DNA from: Escherichia coli
GTDB lineage: Bacteria; Pseudomonadota; Gammaproteobacteria; Enterobacterales; Enterobacteriaceae
Reading direction: 5' to 3' (one strand)
Length of the DNA stretch: 64,000 nucleotides
NCBI RefSeq assembly: GCF_050320075.1
Contig: NZ_CP190018.1
Shown: one piece after another, positions 48,591 to 53,017 of the stretch
How the letters are laid out: each line of letters opens with the position of its first letter
Position numbering within the stretch: the first letter of the stretch is position 1
Notes under the pieces: generated by a model
What the model was told of the DNA's origin: nothing
Databases searched by the model: none
What the model saw: the letters and a program-made list of their open reading frames with translations, nothing else
Translations under genes and position numbers: made by a program

Positions 48591-48602
48591 CTTTCTTCCC
48601 GA

Positions 48603-48689
48603 GCCCGGATGGTGGAATCGGTAGACACAAGGGATTTAAAATCCCTCGGCGTTCGCGCTGTGCGGGTTCAAGTCCCGCTCCGGGTACCA
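48603..48689 (+). tRNA. leuZ: tRNA-Leu (anticodon UAA), with long variable arm
   Basis: 87-nt GCCCGGATGGTGGAATCGGTAGACACAAGGGATTTAAAATCCC...GGTACCA. Confidence 0.95.
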
Positions 48690-48763
48690 TGGGAAAGATA
48701 AGAATAAAATCAAAGCAATAAGCAGTGTCGTGAAACCACCTTCGGGTGGTTTTTTTGTGCCTG
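48634..48763. repeat. Left direct repeat (attL-like): 3' part of leuZ plus its downstream terminator
   Basis: 130 bp identical, apart from one indel, to 52766..52896; covers the anticodon-loop-to-3'-end of tRNA-Leu and the hairpin AAACCACCTTCGGGTGGTTTTTTTGT. Confidence 0.85.
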
Positions 48764-48941
48764 AAATTCACGCCCTGTGCATATCCTGTGCTCACGGGGG
48801 GCAATGAGCTGCAATCTCAAGCCCGGCAATGCCGAATCGAACGTGTCGCCTCCAGCATAGAGAACCAGGCCGCTTTGCCTGTTTTCCGGTACTCTTCCGG
48901 GAAGGGGGGCCAGCTGAGCAAGCTATAATGCTCTGGCCACC

Positions 48942-49673
48942 CTAAGCACAAAGTTGCTTAATTCGTGCAATCACCTCATCTCTGTATTTCTGGTGTCCGC
49001 GCATAGCCCTTGGATGGGCTATCCTGAAACAGATTGTATGACCTGTTTTGAACTCCCATAGCTTCCCCGGAATGACTGAAGAAGTCTCATAGCCGCCTAG
49101 CTCAGTAAGCACCTGTTTTATGATGTAGTCTGTTCTCCGGGCTCCGGATGCAAAGATGGTGAAATCAGGCTCAAGGTGTTTAATTTGTACCGCCAGCAGT
49201 TTCAGCGAGGCTAATATGACTTCCTGCACTTCATTTTGAGGGCGATTGAGAGGGGGCAGTCCGTCGTAATCCCACGCCAGTAGATTGGCATACACGATAG
49301 CCTGAGGAGGAATATTAAGCTCCCGGGCCAGCCGGAAGTGATACTGCGTGAAGCGGCTACGTGATTTGTGGTTCGTGGTGCCATCATTTTGTGCCGGAAG
49401 ATGTTTCCTGTAACGATCTACAGCCTCTTCAACCACCTGCCCGATGGTGACGTCAGGTATAAGTCCCAGAACCCGTGATATCGTATTCTTACCATTCAGC
49501 GTATTCCAGCCAGCGGTTTCACGCCCAACCAGCATGATTTTTACCGGTGAGTGCCAGTATTCTTCAAAGGGCACGGGTAAAAAGACGCCTGAGTATTTAT
49601 CCTCATTCAGGTTAAATGACTGGGCGTCAACTTCCTGTAATATCCGTTTGTATGCGTCTAATAGTCTTTCCAT
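48942..49673 (-). CDS. Hypothetical protein, possible UDG-superfamily (DNA glycosylase-like) fold
   Basis: 243-aa ORF inside the islet; beta-strand plus Gly motif (VKIMLVGRETAGW) near the N-terminus and C-terminal HP motif (FRIAHPRAMRG), similar in position to UDG motifs 1 and 2. Weak, motif-level only. Confidence 0.35.
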   Translation of the reverse strand: MERLLDAYKRILQEVDAQSFNLNEDKYSGVFLPVPFEEYWHSPVKIMLVGRETAGWNTLNGKNTISRVLGLIPDVTIGQVVEEAVDRYRKHLPAQNDGTTNHKSRSRFTQYHFRLARELNIPPQAIVYANLLAWDYDGLPPLNRPQNEVQEVILASLKLLAVQIKHLEPDFTIFASGARRTDYIIKQVLTELGGYETSSVIPGKLWEFKTGHTICFRIAHPRAMRGHQKYRDEVIARIKQLCA

Positions 49674-49723
49674 TCTTCAATCCTGCCCCGTAATAAAAAT
49701 ACCTTCAGATATATATTATTTTC

Positions 49724-50440
49724 ATGATATCAATCAGATACATGAGGATAAATATGCAAAAATCCTTCCGATTCACCAATTCATCCATCAAAGCCCTTCC
49801 GGCAAACACAGATACCCGATCTACAGAGCTTGAGGTATCTGATACCGAAGTCATTGGCCTCAAATGCCTCTCAGGTCGAACGGGCAACAAACGTTTCCTC
49901 CTGCGCTACACATTCCACGGTACCAAAAAAAGTATCAGTATTGGCAGATTCCCTGAAATCGATGTGGGAACAGCCCGTCAGATAGCTCGTCGTCACAAGG
50001 AGGCGATTGCACTGGGAAATGACCCTAAGGCAGAGCGCGATAATTATCGGGCGATGCCAACGCTTAGTGAGTTTTTTCACCAGACCTATGTTCCGTTCAT
50101 CAAGCGCCATAAAAAGTCCTGGGATAAGGATGTTCAGCGTTTCACGCAATACATTGAACCTCGTCTGGGGAAGATACGTTACTGCGACCTTCAGGCCCGG
50201 GAAATCCAGCAGGTGCTTTTTGACATGCTTGAGGGCCGTATTCACGGCCAGCAGTATGCACCGTCTACCTGTAACAGGGCACTGGCTATTCTGAAAACCA
50301 TGGGCCGTTATGCGCTACGACAGGATGTCCTGGAGAAGAATGAAGCCGATAAGATCCCTTTGCTGAAGGAGAATAATCACCGGACGCGCTTTTTTGACGC
50401 TGATGAGATCAGGAGAATCCTTGATGCTGCGTCTCGATAA
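49724..50440 (+). pseudogene. Truncated tyrosine recombinase (P4-type integrase N-terminal arm-binding plus SAM-like region; catalytic domain absent)
   Basis: 238-aa ORF with integrase N-terminal signature (FTNSSIKALP..., GLKCLSGRTGNKRFLLRYTFHGTKKSISIGRFPEIDVGTARQIARRHKEA) but ending before the catalytic R..HxxR..Y domain; adjacent to a tRNA att site. Confidence 0.7.
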
Positions 50441-50454
50441 CCCAATAAAGCTGC

Positions 50455-50490
<36 letters not shown>

Positions 50491-50491
50491 C

Positions 50492-50535
<44 letters not shown>

Positions 50536-50655
50536 TTCTAAGGCTTGCTTTAATGCTAAGGCTAAATGATTTTGATATAGTAAGTTCATACTTAGCGGGC
50601 AGATGCCCACAGACATAGTACCGAAAATAAATCAGGTATTCTGCGAGATTTCAGT

Positions 50656-51984
50656 ATGAAAATAGCCAATATTAGACTTACGAATTTTAGATGTTTTGAC
50701 GAGTTTAGTGTTGATTTTGACCCAAGACTTACAGTTCTCATTGCTCGTAATGGTAGAGGGAAATCTACTCTGCTTGACGCGGTAGCATTAGCTTTAGGAC
50801 CATTTTTAACTCGTTTGCCAGGGATCAAAGGGCTAAGTTTCAAGAAAACCGATTTCCGGATCGACGAAAATGGAGACCAGCCGTCCTATATGCGAGTAAG
50901 TTGTACTAGTACAACGGGTATAACTTGGGATAGAACTGAGCGAAGAGATCTGACAAAAAAAACGTTAGGTAGCATCCCCCAAGGGGCAGCCCTTAAAGCC
51001 TTGAATGATTACGTCGATACGTTCATTGATTCTCACAATGAGAATAAACACTATACATTGCCAATTTTTGTTTATTACGGAACTGGGCGTGGAGTGTTTG
51101 ATATACCACTCAGAAAACGTGCATTTAACAAGCATTTTTCTCGATTTGAGGCCCTTGACGGTGCTCTTGAAAGCAAAACAAATTTCAAAAGATTTGTGCA
51201 ATATTTTTATTTTCTTGAAGAAAAAGAAAATAGATTACAGAAAGAGCAACGATCATTTGAAGTAGAAATCCCTGAATTAAGGGCAATACGCTTGGCTGTG
51301 GAAAAATTACTGCCAGAGTTTAGCAATATTCGCTCGGCAGTACCTGCTGGAATTATGGTCGATTGGTGTAAGCCTATTGGAAATGGTGAAACAACCATAC
51401 AAAAGCTAAGGATTGAACAACTTAGTGATGGCTATAGAACAACTTTAGCTATGGTTATGGATATTGCAGCAAGAATGGCAGAAGCTAACCCCTATTCGAG
51501 TGATCCTCTAAGTTCTGAGGGGATAATTCTCATTGATGAGGTAGATCTGCATCTGCATCCGGAATGGCAACGTGAGTTTCTCCCTAGATTAATCAACGTT
51601 TTCCCTCATCTTCAGTTCATAGTATCGACGCATTCACCATTTATCATCCAGTCTGTCAAAGAGGGGATGTTGGTCGATCTTGATAAAGATGACATTTCGG
51701 ATAGCCCCTCTTTGAATAAAGAACTCAGCATCGAAGATATTGCTGAGGGTGTAATGGGAATGGAAAAAGTTCAACGAAGTGAATTGTTTAACAAACAAGT
51801 CGCAGTTTCAGATAGATATTATCAGTTACTGAATGAAGGAAGAAGTGAAAGCGACCCAGAGGTAAGGAAGCTCTCCGCTGAGCTTGATAAATTGGAAGAG
51901 TTTTTTGGAGATAACCCAGCTTATGTAGCCTTACTTCGTGCTGAGCGCCGAAAAATAATGGGGACACAAGGAAGTAAACAATGA
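50656..51984 (+). CDS. ABC/AAA-type ATPase (AAA_15/AAA_21-like), candidate Septu PtuA
   Basis: 442 aa; Walker A LIARNGRGKSTLLDAV, Walker B/D-loop IILIDEVDLHLHP, H-loop-like FIVSTHSPFI; AT-rich; stop overlaps start of downstream HNH gene (ATGA). Confidence 0.7.
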   Translation: MKIANIRLTNFRCFDEFSVDFDPRLTVLIARNGRGKSTLLDAVALALGPFLTRLPGIKGLSFKKTDFRIDENGDQPSYMRVSCTSTTGITWDRTERRDLTKKTLGSIPQGAALKALNDYVDTFIDSHNENKHYTLPIFVYYGTGRGVFDIPLRKRAFNKHFSRFEALDGALESKTNFKRFVQYFYFLEEKENRLQKEQRSFEVEIPELRAIRLAVEKLLPEFSNIRSAVPAGIMVDWCKPIGNGETTIQKLRIEQLSDGYRTTLAMVMDIAARMAEANPYSSDPLSSEGIILIDEVDLHLHPEWQREFLPRLINVFPHLQFIVSTHSPFIIQSVKEGMLVDLDKDDISDSPSLNKELSIEDIAEGVMGMEKVQRSELFNKQVAVSDRYYQLLNEGRSESDPEVRKLSAELDKLEEFFGDNPAYVALLRAERRKIMGTQGSKQ

Positions 51985-52592
51985 GACCTGTAAATCGACC
52001 TCCATATAATGGAACTGTTTATGCAGATTATAAATCATTTTTACCTTCGCTATTAACTGCATATGGCGGATATTGTTCTTATTGTGAGCGGCCGGATAAG
52101 GTTGATGTGGAGCATGTTGTCCCAAAAACGCATGCACCACTTTTGATTACTGATTGGAACAATTTTTTACTGGGTTGCCCTCGCTGTAACCGAGATTTTA
52201 AAAAAAGTAAGAATACTCAACGTATAGGCTATGTTTGGCCAGATGTTGAGAATACATTTAATTTATTGACATACCATCCAGATGGTAGAGTAGAGCCTAA
52301 GCAGGGGCTGTCTGCCGGACTAACTGCGCAGGTACAGGCTACTATTGATTTGGTATGTCTTGATGATGGTAACCAAGTACAAAAAACTTTAAATCTTGGT
52401 AGAAGGAGATATTTTGGACTCGCGAATAAGGCCAAGACTCTTTATCTGAGTAATTTATTGAGTATTGATGAGGTCATGGATATGGCTCAGTTAGGATATT
52501 GGTCGATCTGGTATAATGTGTTTCAAGGTGTACCTGCTGTCCTTTCAGCTTTGGAGAATTCCTATCCTAATACCGCTATAAACCGCCCATGA
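51981..52592 (+). CDS. HNH endonuclease, candidate Septu PtuB
   Basis: 203 aa; HNH/zinc-finger motif CSYCERPDKVDVEHVVPK...NNFLLGCPRCNRDFK (C-x2-C ... H ... N ... C-x2-C); translationally coupled to the upstream ATPase. Confidence 0.7.
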   Translation: MRPVNRPPYNGTVYADYKSFLPSLLTAYGGYCSYCERPDKVDVEHVVPKTHAPLLITDWNNFLLGCPRCNRDFKKSKNTQRIGYVWPDVENTFNLLTYHPDGRVEPKQGLSAGLTAQVQATIDLVCLDDGNQVQKTLNLGRRRYFGLANKAKTLYLSNLLSIDEVMDMAQLGYWSIWYNVFQGVPAVLSALENSYPNTAINRP

Positions 52593-52765
52593 CATAGGTG
52601 AAATGAATTGGCTCAGGTGCGTACAAGGGGAAGACTTACCTGTGCAGCTTCTGTGTTCAACGTTATCCATGTCTATCTATTTACTGCCAATTACAGTAAA
52701 GTTGGTGGATAATTACAGCAAAGTGTTGCAATGGGTTGCTATGTAAATCATTGATCCTGCGTAGA

Positions 52766-52896
52766 ATTTAAAATCCCTCGGCGTTCGCGCTGTGCGGGTT
52801 CAAGTACCCGCTCCGGGTACCATGGGAAAGATAAGAATAAAATCAAAGCAATAAGCAGTGTCGTGAAACCACCTTCGGGTGGTTTTTTTGTGCCTG
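52766..52896. repeat. Right direct repeat (attR-like): partial copy of leuZ 3' part plus terminator
   Basis: 131-bp copy of 48634..48763 with a single-nucleotide insertion (CAAGTACCCGCT versus CAAGTCCCGCT); lacks the tRNA 5' half, so it is not a functional tRNA. Confidence 0.85.
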
Positions 52897-53017
52897 CAAC
52901 TTGTCGTTACACCCTCCTTAATTTTTAATCACCGGCAAAGCCACTCAAAAAGTATCTCTGTTACGGACCGACATGTAAGATAGGTGCTGGCGAGTTGAGA
53001 TCCACAAGGAAAAGCGT

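What the first reader, a model, noticed from the sequence alone, without database searches (positions are those of the whole stretch)
48942..49673. Orphan 243-aa ORF in the islet with UDG-superfamily-like motifs
Divergently oriented to the integrase fragment, this ORF has no obvious family by inspection. It carries a hydrophobic strand followed by a Gly-rich turn (KIMLVGRETAGW) and a C-terminal His-Pro motif (ICFRIAHPRAMRGHQ), arranged like motif 1 and motif 2 of uracil-DNA-glycosylase superfamily proteins. DNA glycosylases acting on modified phage DNA have been described as antiviral defences, so this could be an independent single-gene defence or an accessory partner of the ATPase/HNH pair. 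This is a weak, motif-level inference.
Basis: inference. Interest (0 to 1): 0.6.

Follow-up and report, generated by a model that had tools for sequence, protein, structure and literature searches.

The report
Pipolin-end uracil-DNA-glycosylase-like gene
The 243-residue ORF is a real, conserved gene for a divergent uracil-DNA-glycosylase-fold enzyme that pipolin papers already list as the "UDG" next to the tRNA-Leu attachment site; here it survives in a decayed pipolin carrying a Septu defence system, and it may be an untested antiviral base-excision enzyme.

Summary
The ORF at 48942-49673 (-) is real. It is 243 aa, starts at ATG, and carries both quoted motifs.

It is not an orphan. It has 180 homologue clusters at 90% identity and 515 at 50% identity, with dN/dS of 0.12-0.18.

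The fold call holds:
- The AF2 model is confident (pLDDT 89.7).
- A 141-sequence profile has one significant PDB hit, the S. tokodaii family-4 UDG (E = 2.3e-5). It aligns N130 with N82 and H220-P221 with motif B.
- 9 of 141 relatives hit Pfam UDG.

It is not a canonical family-4 enzyme: it has only two Cys (no Fe-S cluster), and motif A is GRETAG rather than GE[AG]PG. It has no detectable sequence similarity to Brig1.

The islet (48767-52765) is bounded by ~133-bp repeats of the leuZ 3' half. This is the published E. coli pipolin site, where a "type-4 UDG" next to a XerC-like recombinase occurs in 95% of pipolins. Here piPolB is gone, the integrase is a fragment, and Septu is cargo.

The gene travels with the att/integrase end, not with Septu: 535 genomes carry the gene, and 40 carry this exact islet. 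Outside pipolins the family sits beside other defence genes.

An antiviral glycosylase role is the best inference, but it is untested.

The parts
48942..49673 (-). 243-aa UDG-superfamily (family-4-related, Fe-S-less) protein, the pipolin 'UDG' gene. Candidate active-site residues are G50-R51-E52, W56, F108, N130, H220-P221.
   Evidence: ORF. Model. Fold matches. Profile hit to 4ZBX. Pfam UDG in relatives. Residue conservation. Purifying selection.
48634..48766 (+). Left direct repeat (att). It holds the 3' half of the functional leuZ tRNA, the 3'ETS-leuZ sequence and the terminator.
   Evidence: K-12 alignment breakpoints. Repeat families D1/D2 at 98-99% identity. K-12 annotation.
52766..52899 (+). 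Right direct repeat (att): a second copy of the leuZ 3' half, 3'ETS and terminator. It marks the distal end of the islet.
48603..48689 (+). tRNA-Leu(UAA) leuZ, the integration target. It is the last gene of the glyW-cysT-leuZ cluster.
   Evidence: ARAGORN. The published pipolin site is 'tRNA-Leu between pgsA and yecA' (PMC11551731).
49754..50464 (+). 5' fragment of the XerC/IntS-type tyrosine recombinase (residues 1-237 of 399). The catalytic domain is missing.
   Evidence: tblastn against the full-length integrase of strain PK5. RefSeq note 'missing C-terminus'. NCBIfam XerC N-terminal matches.
49674..49753 (.). 80-bp divergent intergenic region between the UDG-like gene and the integrase fragment. 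An AGGA lies 7 nt before the ATG. The promoter is presumed to be here but was not detected.
   Evidence: Sequence. The consensus promoter scan found nothing.
50656..51984 (+). Septu PtuA ATPase. It is cargo of the islet, not a partner of the UDG-like gene.
   Evidence: PADLOC PDLC00267, E = 2.1e-190.
51981..52592 (+). Septu PtuB HNH nuclease (cargo).
   Evidence: PADLOC PDLC00315, E = 6.1e-61.

Best explanation
The ORF encodes a monofunctional DNA glycosylase of the UDG superfamily. It derives from the family-4 lineage but has lost the Fe-S cluster and gained a ~45-residue insertion after motif A.

It is the conserved tRNA-proximal 'UDG' gene of enterobacterial pipolins. The islet in this window is a decayed pipolin: the att repeats are kept, the integrase is truncated, piPolB is lost, and Septu is cargo.

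Proposed mechanism (inferred):
- The enzyme scans DNA and flips a pyrimidine into a pocket built from the G50-x-E52 loop, W56, F108, N130 and H220-P221.
- The retained Asn suggests a uracil- or thymine-type base, possibly a phage-specific dU or hypermodified dT derivative.
- It hydrolyses the N-glycosidic bond. Clustered abasic sites in invading DNA then block replication or are nicked by host AP endonucleases.
- In Enterobacterales it acts as a single gene. In marine Gammaproteobacteria the same enzyme works with, or is fused to, a 109-aa partner domain.

Shown here: the gene, the fold, homology to family-4 UDG, conserved pocket residues, pipolin identity, and the defence-island neighbourhoods. 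Inferred: catalytic activity, the substrate, and the antiviral role.
For: Fold and homology:
- AF2 gives pLDDT 89.7 and pTM 0.89.
- All top-50 Foldseek hits are UDG-family, with 4ZBY best.
- The A2 profile has one significant PDB hit, 4ZBX, at E = 2.3e-5. It aligns N130 with N82 and HP with motif B.
- hhalign against family 4 gives probability 81%, and KIMLVG aligns with KLMIVGE.
- PF03167 matches 9 of 141 relatives at E <= 1e-3 and 54 at E <= 0.1.

Pocket residues: G50 is invariant, and E52, W56, F108, N130, H220 and P221 are kept in >= 90% of sequences down to ~23% identity.

Pipolin identity:
- ~133-bp att repeats flank the islet.
- The order leuZ | UDG | int | orfA | orfB | DUF2787 ... piPolB is seen in Enterobacter, Citrobacter and Buttiauxella and in E. 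coli O145:H28.
- The literature reports a 'type-4 UDG' in 95% of E. coli pipolins, with HHpred best hit Q96YD0, the S. tokodaii UDG, at the site 'tRNA-Leu between pgsA and yecA'.

Function independent of piPolB:
- The gene is in 535 E. coli genomes, while piPolB at >= 80% coverage is in 287.
- An intact solo copy sits beside the tRNA cluster in Atlantibacter, with no integrase or polymerase nearby.
- dN/dS is 0.12-0.18.

Defence neighbourhoods in unrelated genomes: Septu; Mrr plus Type I RM; PDC-S02 plus PDC-S26, Azaca plus PDC-S36, and PDC-S48 plus PDC-S02; PDC-S26, mad3-like and HEC-04; Tn7-like cargo.

Precedent: the UDG-superfamily enzymes Brig1, Brig2 and Brig3 are proven antiviral glycosylases (PMC11078745; 10.1101/2025.10.29.685425; 10.64898/2026.02.25.707755).
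Against: - There is no biochemical or phage-challenge evidence for this family, here or in the searched literature.
- PADLOC v2, NCBIfam and Pfam give no direct hit for the protein itself.
- Motif A differs from every characterised UDG family: GRETAG, with the Glu one position off the family-4 register. Catalytic competence is therefore assumed, not shown.
- The gene is a core-end gene present in 95% of E. coli pipolins. That would also fit a role in maintaining the element.
- 4 of 10 extra loci probed had no PADLOC hit among their immediate neighbours.
- The simple scan found no sigma-70-like promoter upstream.
- Pseudogenised copies are common.
Confidence: 0.5

Rival explanations
1. It is an element-maintenance repair enzyme. 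On this reading it is a family-4-like uracil, or damaged-base, glycosylase that serves pipolin replication. It would clean the element's DNA, and the abasic sites it creates would be tolerated by piPolB, the element's translesion-capable primer-independent polymerase. It would have no direct antiviral role.
For: - The gene is present in 95% of E. coli pipolins, at the conserved core end next to the recombinase.
- Pipolin papers list UDGs among DNA-replication-associated genes (PMC5695915).
- Its closest solved relatives are genuine uracil-repair enzymes.
- It retains the Asn, Phe and His-Pro typical of uracil pockets.
Against: - The family is widespread outside pipolins, with no piPolB within 8-10 kb: Proteus, Pectobacterium, Marinobacter, Stutzerimonas, Pseudoalteromonas Tn7-like cargo, and plasmids.
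- It is kept intact in decayed elements that lack piPolB and a working integrase, as in this window and as a solo copy in Atlantibacter.
- More E. coli genomes carry it (535) than carry piPolB at >= 80% coverage (287).
- From general knowledge of E. coli, the host already has Ung and Mug.
Confidence: 0.25
2. It is a non-catalytic UDG-fold protein. It would be a DNA- or modified-base-binding sensor or a polymerase accessory, comparable to vaccinia D4 in the E9-A20-D4 holoenzyme, the UDG-like domains fused to phage PolA, or the inactivated EndoIII sensor domain of END nucleases.
For: - Motif A is non-canonical, and no acidic or Asn catalytic residue sits in the exact family-1, -2 or -3 positions.
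- The gene co-occurs with a family-B polymerase in pipolins.
Against: - Strong conservation of exactly the pocket-forming positions (G50, E52, F108, N130, H220-P221) across sequences of ~23% identity is what an active enzyme would show.
- The protein occurs as a stand-alone gene, with no consistent effector or polymerase next to it.
Confidence: 0.12
3. It is an accessory third component of the adjacent Septu (PtuA/PtuB) system.
For: The only evidence is physical proximity in this islet.
Against: - It is separated from PtuAB by an integrase pseudogene and is transcribed in the opposite direction.
- The same gene-plus-integrase pair carries other cargo in other strains.
- Only 40 of 535 gene-positive E. 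coli genomes have this Septu arrangement.
- No homologous locus outside E. coli had PtuA/PtuB next to it.
Confidence: 0.03

Closest known systems
Pipolin 'type-4 UDG' of E. coli pipolins (Flament-Simon et al. 2020, PMC7385651; Mateo-Caceres et al. 2024, PMC11551731)
   Same: This is the same gene by position and homology.
- It lies between the tRNA-Leu att repeat and the XerC-like recombinase.
- The published HHpred best hit is Q96YD0, the S. tokodaii UDG. That is the same protein as my only significant PDB hit, 4ZBX.
- It occurs with piPolB in related loci.
   Different: In this window the element has lost piPolB and the integrase catalytic domain. The published annotation as 'type 4' rests on remote homology only. 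No activity or role has been reported.
Family-4 uracil-DNA glycosylases (T. maritima 1L9G, T. thermophilus 1UI0, S. tokodaii 4ZBX/4ZBY)
   Same: - Strand beta-1 ends in V-G followed by a Glu-containing loop.
- An Asn closes strand beta-2 (N130 ~ N82).
- A PP-x-NR-P stretch follows.
- Motif B is H-P.
   Different: - It has only two cysteines, so the [4Fe-4S] cluster of family 4 cannot form.
- Motif A is GRETAG(W), not GE[AG]PG.
- There is a ~45-residue insertion (about residues 58-105) between motif A and the conserved Phe.
- The loop after the Asn is longer.
- Identity is 13-16%.
Brig1 (alpha-glucosyl-5hmC DNA glycosylase, Hossain et al. 2024, PMC11078745)
   Same: - Both are divergent UDG-superfamily proteins of ~250 aa.
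- Both are single genes in defence islands.
   Different: - There is no detectable sequence relationship (hhalign probability 0.2%).
- Brig1 has an Asn-type motif A (GLNPG), uses E147 on the base's Watson-Crick face, and lacks the H-P motif B.
- This protein has Glu-type GRETAG, N130 and HP.
Brig3 with BapA (5hmC glycosylase plus ASCH-type deglucosylase, 10.64898/2026.02.25.707755)
   Same: - Both are UDG-superfamily defence glycosylases of similar size.
- Brig3 is encoded in an overlapping two-gene operon with a small accessory protein. Marine members of this family likewise have an overlapping 109-aa partner.
   Different: - Brig3 uses N50-P51-S52, E55, D127 and N225. These do not match the residues conserved here.
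- BapA is an ASCH beta-barrel. The partner here is an alpha/beta domain with no ASCH match.
- The E. coli gene has no partner at all.
Brig2 (UDG-like glycosylase against thymidine-hypermodified Pseudomonas phages, 10.1101/2025.10.29.685425)
   Same: - It is a UDG-fold, single-gene defence spread on mobile elements across Proteobacteria.
- A thymine- or uracil-type substrate would fit the Asn retained here.
   Different: Identity or non-identity of the two families could not be tested. The Brig2 sequence and accession lists are truncated in the held supplements.

Membership tests
UDG superfamily (Pfam PF03167 / SCOP UDG-like fold) | Four-stranded parallel beta-sheet alpha/beta core shared by UDG families 1-6 | tested here: met
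   [not shown]
UDG superfamily (Pfam PF03167 / SCOP UDG-like fold) | Sequence-level homology to established members | tested here: met
   The A2 profile hits 4ZBX at E = 2.3e-5 as its only significant PDB hit. PF03167 matches 9 of 141 relatives at E <= 1e-3. The window protein alone gives no Pfam hit.
UDG superfamily (Pfam PF03167 / SCOP UDG-like fold) | Motif A after strand beta-1 and motif B (H-P-x) after the last core strand | tested here: met
   VGRETAGW follows E46-50 and AHPR follows E213-218. They align with VGEGPG and FHPA of family 4.
UDG superfamily (Pfam PF03167 / SCOP UDG-like fold) | N-glycosidic bond hydrolysis on DNA | not testable with these tools
   This needs a biochemical assay.
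Family-4 UDG (UdgA type) | Four conserved Cys ligating a [4Fe-4S] cluster | tested here: not met
   The protein has only two Cys (C215, C242). No Cys is conserved across the broad family.
Family-4 UDG (UdgA type) | Motif A G-E-[AG]-P-G | tested here: not met
   The motif is G50-R-E-T-A-G55. The Glu is shifted by one position and there is no Pro.
Family-4 UDG (UdgA type) | Asn at the end of beta-2 (N80 in Tth, N82 in Sto) and motif B H-P-[AS] | tested here: met
   N130 aligns with N82 and H220-P221 aligns with H-P of 4ZBX.
Brig1 family | Detectable homology to Brig1, with the GLNPG motif and the Y121/E147 pocket | tested here: not met
   hhalign of the family profile against Brig1 gives probability 0.2%. 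The Brig1 sequence came from the paper's supplement.
Brig2 family | Sequence homology to Brig2 | not testable with these tools
   The sequence and accessions are not held. The E. coli accessions were not found in the truncated tables.
Enterobacterial pipolin (the element) | Integration at the tRNA-Leu gene between pgsA and yecA, flanked by att-like direct repeats | tested here: met
   ~133-bp repeats lie at 48634-48766 and 52766-52899. The site is as published.
Enterobacterial pipolin (the element) | piPolB gene, the hallmark of the element | tested here: not met
   There is no piPolB in the window. It is present in syntenic loci L018, L025, L026, L030 and L031. The window therefore holds a pipolin remnant, not a pipolin.
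Enterobacterial pipolin (the element) | XerC/IntS-type recombinase next to the UDG at the tRNA-proximal end | tested here: met
   The integrase fragment is 96.6% identical to residues 1-237 of the full-length integrase that sits next to the same gene elsewhere.
Septu (as an accessory gene) | Consistent co-occurrence with PtuA/PtuB | tested here: not met
   Only 40 of 535 gene-positive E. coli genomes have this arrangement. None of the non-E. coli loci do.

The most novel reading that the evidence does not exclude
This would be a further, independently evolved lineage of antiviral DNA glycosylases within the UDG superfamily. It would derive from Fe-S-containing family-4 repair enzymes, with a Glu-type motif A, rather than from the Asn-type lineages that gave Brig1 and Brig3.

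Its substrate would be a uracil- or thymine-type phage base. In marine bacteria it would work with, or be fused to, a dedicated 109-aa partner domain of new fold and unknown role, perhaps an inhibitor or a specificity module. In Enterobacterales the solo enzyme would have become the resident 'guard' gene at the attachment end of pipolins, kept by the host even after the element dies.
Probability: 0.35. Interest if true: 0.6.

Novelty: new member of a known kind. Interest (0 to 1): 0.45.

Why it matters
If the enzyme is active against phage DNA, three things follow:
- It would add a family-4-derived lineage to the small set of proven defensive glycosylases (Brig1, Brig2, Brig3 and the Dag families).
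- It would give a function to the most conserved non-recombinase, non-polymerase gene of E. coli pipolins.
- It would explain why about 10% of E. coli genomes keep this gene beside leuZ even when the rest of the element has decayed.

The conserved Asn suggests a specificity for dU or modified dT, which differs from the cytosine-directed Brig1 and Brig3. This could be tested on enterobacterial phages with hypermodified thymidine.

If the enzyme is only a repair UDG, the finding is ordinary.

Tried and rejected
Searches that gave nothing:
- Direct scans of the protein against Pfam, NCBIfam and PADLOC gave no hit. PHROGs matched only phrog_29550, a family of unknown function.
- phmmer against PDB gave nothing. 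The close-family profile A1 against PDB gave only noise at E > 1. The broader profile A2 was needed to reach 4ZBX.
- tblastn against 50,697 phage records gave no match, so this is not a gene of sequenced phages.
- No paper mentions the E. coli protein accession, and none tests a pipolin UDG.

Comparisons that were negative or blocked:
- Comparison with Brig1 was negative.
- Brig2 and Brig3 sequences could not be obtained from the held texts.
- The search for related loci with A2 failed for lack of a conserved stretch, so I used A1 instead.

Inconclusive results:
- The promoter scan found no sigma-70-like site near the gene.

Rejected readings:
- An apparent piPolB hit in the window (50145-50228) is an artefact. 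In O145:H28 the polymerase ORF's 3' end runs antisense into the integrase fragment.
- A Septu accessory role, on co-occurrence grounds.
- Canonical family-4 UDG membership, because there are no Fe-S cysteines and motif A is altered.

Full report
**1. Observation**

The window is E. coli chromosome. It reads tcyN-sdiA-yecF-uvrY-uvrC-pgsA, then the glyW-cysT-leuZ tRNA cluster, then yecA-tyrP.

An ATG-initiated ORF of 243 aa lies at 48942-49673 on the minus strand. Both quoted peptides are present, at residues 45-56 and 213-227. Upstream and divergent, 80 bp away, is a fragment of a tyrosine recombinase. It matches residues 1-237 of a 399-aa integrase at window 49754-50464.

The ORF is a real gene:
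- All homologues begin at the same Met.
- Pairwise dN/dS is 0.14 against another E. coli allele, 0.12 against Atlantibacter, 0.18 against Pectobacterium and 0.16 between two marine members.

'Orphan' is wrong:
- There are 180 homologue clusters at 90% identity across Enterobacterales and marine Gammaproteobacteria.
- A profile search of 1.84 billion representatives finds 515 clusters at E <= 1e-3.
- The protein matches phrog_29550, of unknown function, at E = 1.7e-172.
- 535 of 5426 complete E. coli genomes carry the gene.

**2. Fold and family**

Direct searches with the single protein gave no family assignment. Pfam, NCBIfam, PADLOC and PDB were empty, and PHROGs matched only a family of unknown function.

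An AlphaFold2 model built on 56 homologues is confident, with pLDDT 89.7 and pTM 0.89.
- Foldseek against PDB returns only UDG-superfamily structures in the top 50. The best is S. tokodaii family-4 UDG 4ZBY at E = 1e-5.

Sequence-level support came after widening the family.
- A 141-sequence alignment reaching ~23% identity has one significant hit in PDB, 4ZBX, at E = 2.3e-5. That hit aligns the query's '...YAN' with 'FITN82' and 'AHPR' with 'YHPA'.
- hhalign against four family-4/UdgX sequences gives 81% probability. When extended, it aligns KIMLVG with KLMIVGE.
- Pfam UDG (PF03167) matches 9 of the 141 relatives at E <= 1e-3 and 54 at E <= 0.1.

Across this broad family G50 is invariant. E52, W56, F108, N130, H220 and P221 are kept in at least 90% of sequences. 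These are the positions that form the base pocket in family-4 enzymes. The mapping of F108 to the stacking Phe is my inference.

**3. Not a canonical family-4 enzyme, and not Brig1**

- The protein has only two cysteines, so the family-4 [4Fe-4S] cluster cannot form.
- Motif A is GRETAG(W) rather than GE[AG]PG.
- About 45 residues (58-105, two helices and a lower-confidence loop) are inserted between motif A and the conserved Phe.
- Brig1, whose sequence I took from the paper's supplement, has an Asn-type motif A (GLNPG) and no H-P motif B. It shows no relationship to this family (hhalign probability 0.2%).
- Brig3's published catalytic residues (N50-P51-S52, E55, D127, N225) also do not match.
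- Brig2 could not be compared, because its sequence is not in the held material.

**4. The islet is a decayed pipolin and the ORF is its 'UDG'**

Aligning K-12 across the site shows that 130 bp of K-12 sequence match twice, at 48634-48763 and 52766-52895. The repeat finder gives 98-99% identical copies spanning 48634-48766 and 52766-52899. Each copy contains the 3' half of leuZ, the 3'ETS-leuZ sequence and the terminator.

The ORF therefore lies inside a 4.1-kb islet: att | ORF(-) | int fragment | PtuA | PtuB | att. PtuA and PtuB are a strong Septu match.

The literature identifies this exact place:
- 'tRNA-Leu between pgsA and yecA' is the E. coli pipolin integration site (PMC11551731).
- E. 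coli pipolins are flanked by att-like direct repeats.
- Their Table S3 lists this UDG in 87 of 92 (95%) pipolins, with HHpred best hit Q96YD0. That is the S. tokodaii UDG, the same protein as my 4ZBX hit.

Related loci confirm it:
- E. coli O145:H28 has the same ORF and integrase fragment followed by a DNA polymerase gene.
- Strain PK5 has it (frameshifted there) next to a full integrase and DUF2787.
- Enterobacter, Citrobacter koseri and two Buttiauxella species show the order tRNA-Leu | UDG | int | orfA | orfB | DUF2787 ... piPolB.

The window has no piPolB. It holds a pipolin remnant with Septu as surviving cargo. This exact arrangement occurs in 40 E. coli genomes.

**5. Evidence on function**

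*Independence from Septu.* The gene travels with the att/integrase end and the cargo varies.

*Independence from piPolB.*
- 535 E. coli genomes have the gene, and 287 have piPolB at >= 80% coverage.
- Atlantibacter hermannii keeps an intact solo copy beside the tRNA cluster, with no integrase or polymerase nearby.
- Most non-enterobacterial loci have no polymerase nearby.

*Neighbourhoods.*
- Proteus: Mrr plus a Type I RM system.
- Pectobacterium: PDC-S02 (Mrr-like) and PDC-S26.
- Marinobacter: a complete Azaca system upstream and PDC-S36 downstream.
- A metagenomic fusion protein: followed by two DEDDh exonucleases and an Mrr-like gene.
- Pseudoalteromonas: cargo of a Tn7-like element.
- Other loci: PDC-S26, a mad3-like ATPase, HEC-04, and a WYL-domain gene.
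- Four of ten additional loci had no PADLOC hit among their immediate neighbours.
- The family is also on 12 plasmids of diverse Proteobacteria and is absent from sequenced phages.

*Precedent.* Three UDG-superfamily enzymes (Brig1, Brig2, Brig3) defend bacteria by excising phage-specific bases.

*Decay.* Pseudogenes and fragments are frequent, as is usual for accessory defence genes.

**6. Partner domain (not in the window)**

In marine and environmental Gammaproteobacteria, a 109-aa ORF overlaps the start of the glycosylase gene. This holds in 15 of 47 species-representative loci and in none from Enterobacterales.

The partner is fused to the glycosylase in P0072 and P0123, and probably in four more distant proteins. 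This gene-fusion evidence suggests the two act together.

**7. Most likely mechanism**

I commit to a monofunctional glycosylase. It flips a uracil- or thymine-type base, possibly phage-modified, into the G50/E52/W56/F108/N130/H220 pocket and cleaves the glycosidic bond. The resulting abasic sites poison replication of the invading DNA.

My confidence that the protein has a UDG fold and is the pipolin UDG is above 0.9. My confidence that it is an antiviral glycosylase is about 0.5. The remainder is split as follows:
- an element-maintenance repair UDG, 0.25;
- a non-catalytic UDG-fold binder or polymerase accessory, 0.12;
- a Septu accessory, 0.03.

**8. Novelty and verdict**

The fold assignment is not new. 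Pipolin papers have called this gene a type-4 UDG since 2017-2020, and the 2024 pipolin paper loosely suggested that glycosylases in pipolins might be defensive.

What this analysis adds:
- The gene is not a canonical family-4 enzyme and shows no sequence similarity to Brig1.
- It forms a large family of its own, with a conserved pocket.
- The family has a partner domain outside Enterobacterales.
- The gene persists without piPolB.
- The family's neighbours are defence genes in many unrelated genomes.

Functionally, it is best filed as a probable new member of the known kind 'UDG-superfamily defence glycosylases', pending experiment. Interest is moderate, at 0.45.

Noticed in passing
window 52766-52899 (copy of 48634-48766): The right att repeat duplicates the 3' half of leuZ and also the whole 3'ETS-leuZ sRNA-sponge sequence and its terminator. 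The native copy is at about 48690-48756 and the second copy at about 52823-52889. I did not examine whether the second copy is ever transcribed.
   Followed up: partly
[not shown]
   Followed up: yes
window 50656-52592: There is a complete Septu system. PtuA matches PADLOC at E = 2e-190 and PtuB at E = 6e-61. It is the only cargo left in the islet. The exact islet is present in 40 of 5426 complete E. coli genomes.
   Followed up: partly
L062:8944-9993 (Alteromonas indica): A 349-aa WYL-domain protein gene overlaps the start of the glycosylase homologue by 11 bp. The pipolin literature also lists WYL proteins as pipolin core genes.
   Followed up: no
L020:429-3701 (metagenome contig): A fused partner-glycosylase gene is followed in the same direction by two DEDDh (RNase T-like) exonuclease genes and an Mrr-like nuclease gene. 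This could be a multi-gene unit that processes abasic sites.
   Followed up: partly
L017:5992-6731; L061:9992-10780; L066:1-192; L068:9983-10325: The gene is often degraded. It is frameshifted in E. coli PK5, split over three frames in Proteus penneri, and reduced to C-terminal fragments beside tRNA-Leu in Citrobacter amalonaticus and Atlantibacter sp. RC6.
   Followed up: partly
L018:7195-7283 and window 50145-50228: In E. coli O145:H28 the annotated piPolB ORF ends with 28 codons read antisense through the integrase fragment. This marks a deletion junction. It produces a spurious 'piPolB' tblastn hit inside every copy of the integrase gene, including the one in the window.
   Followed up: yes
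L004:1101-7504 (Marinobacter): A full Azaca system (ZacA, ZacB and ZacC, E values down to 8e-280) lies immediately upstream of the partner-glycosylase pair. A HIT-family gene and a PDC-S36/NOV_C gene lie downstream.
   Followed up: partly
window 49674-49753: The consensus scan found no sigma-70-like promoter in the 80-bp divergent region or anywhere in 48600-50000. The expectation from shuffles was 2.0. How the gene is transcribed remains unknown.
   Followed up: no
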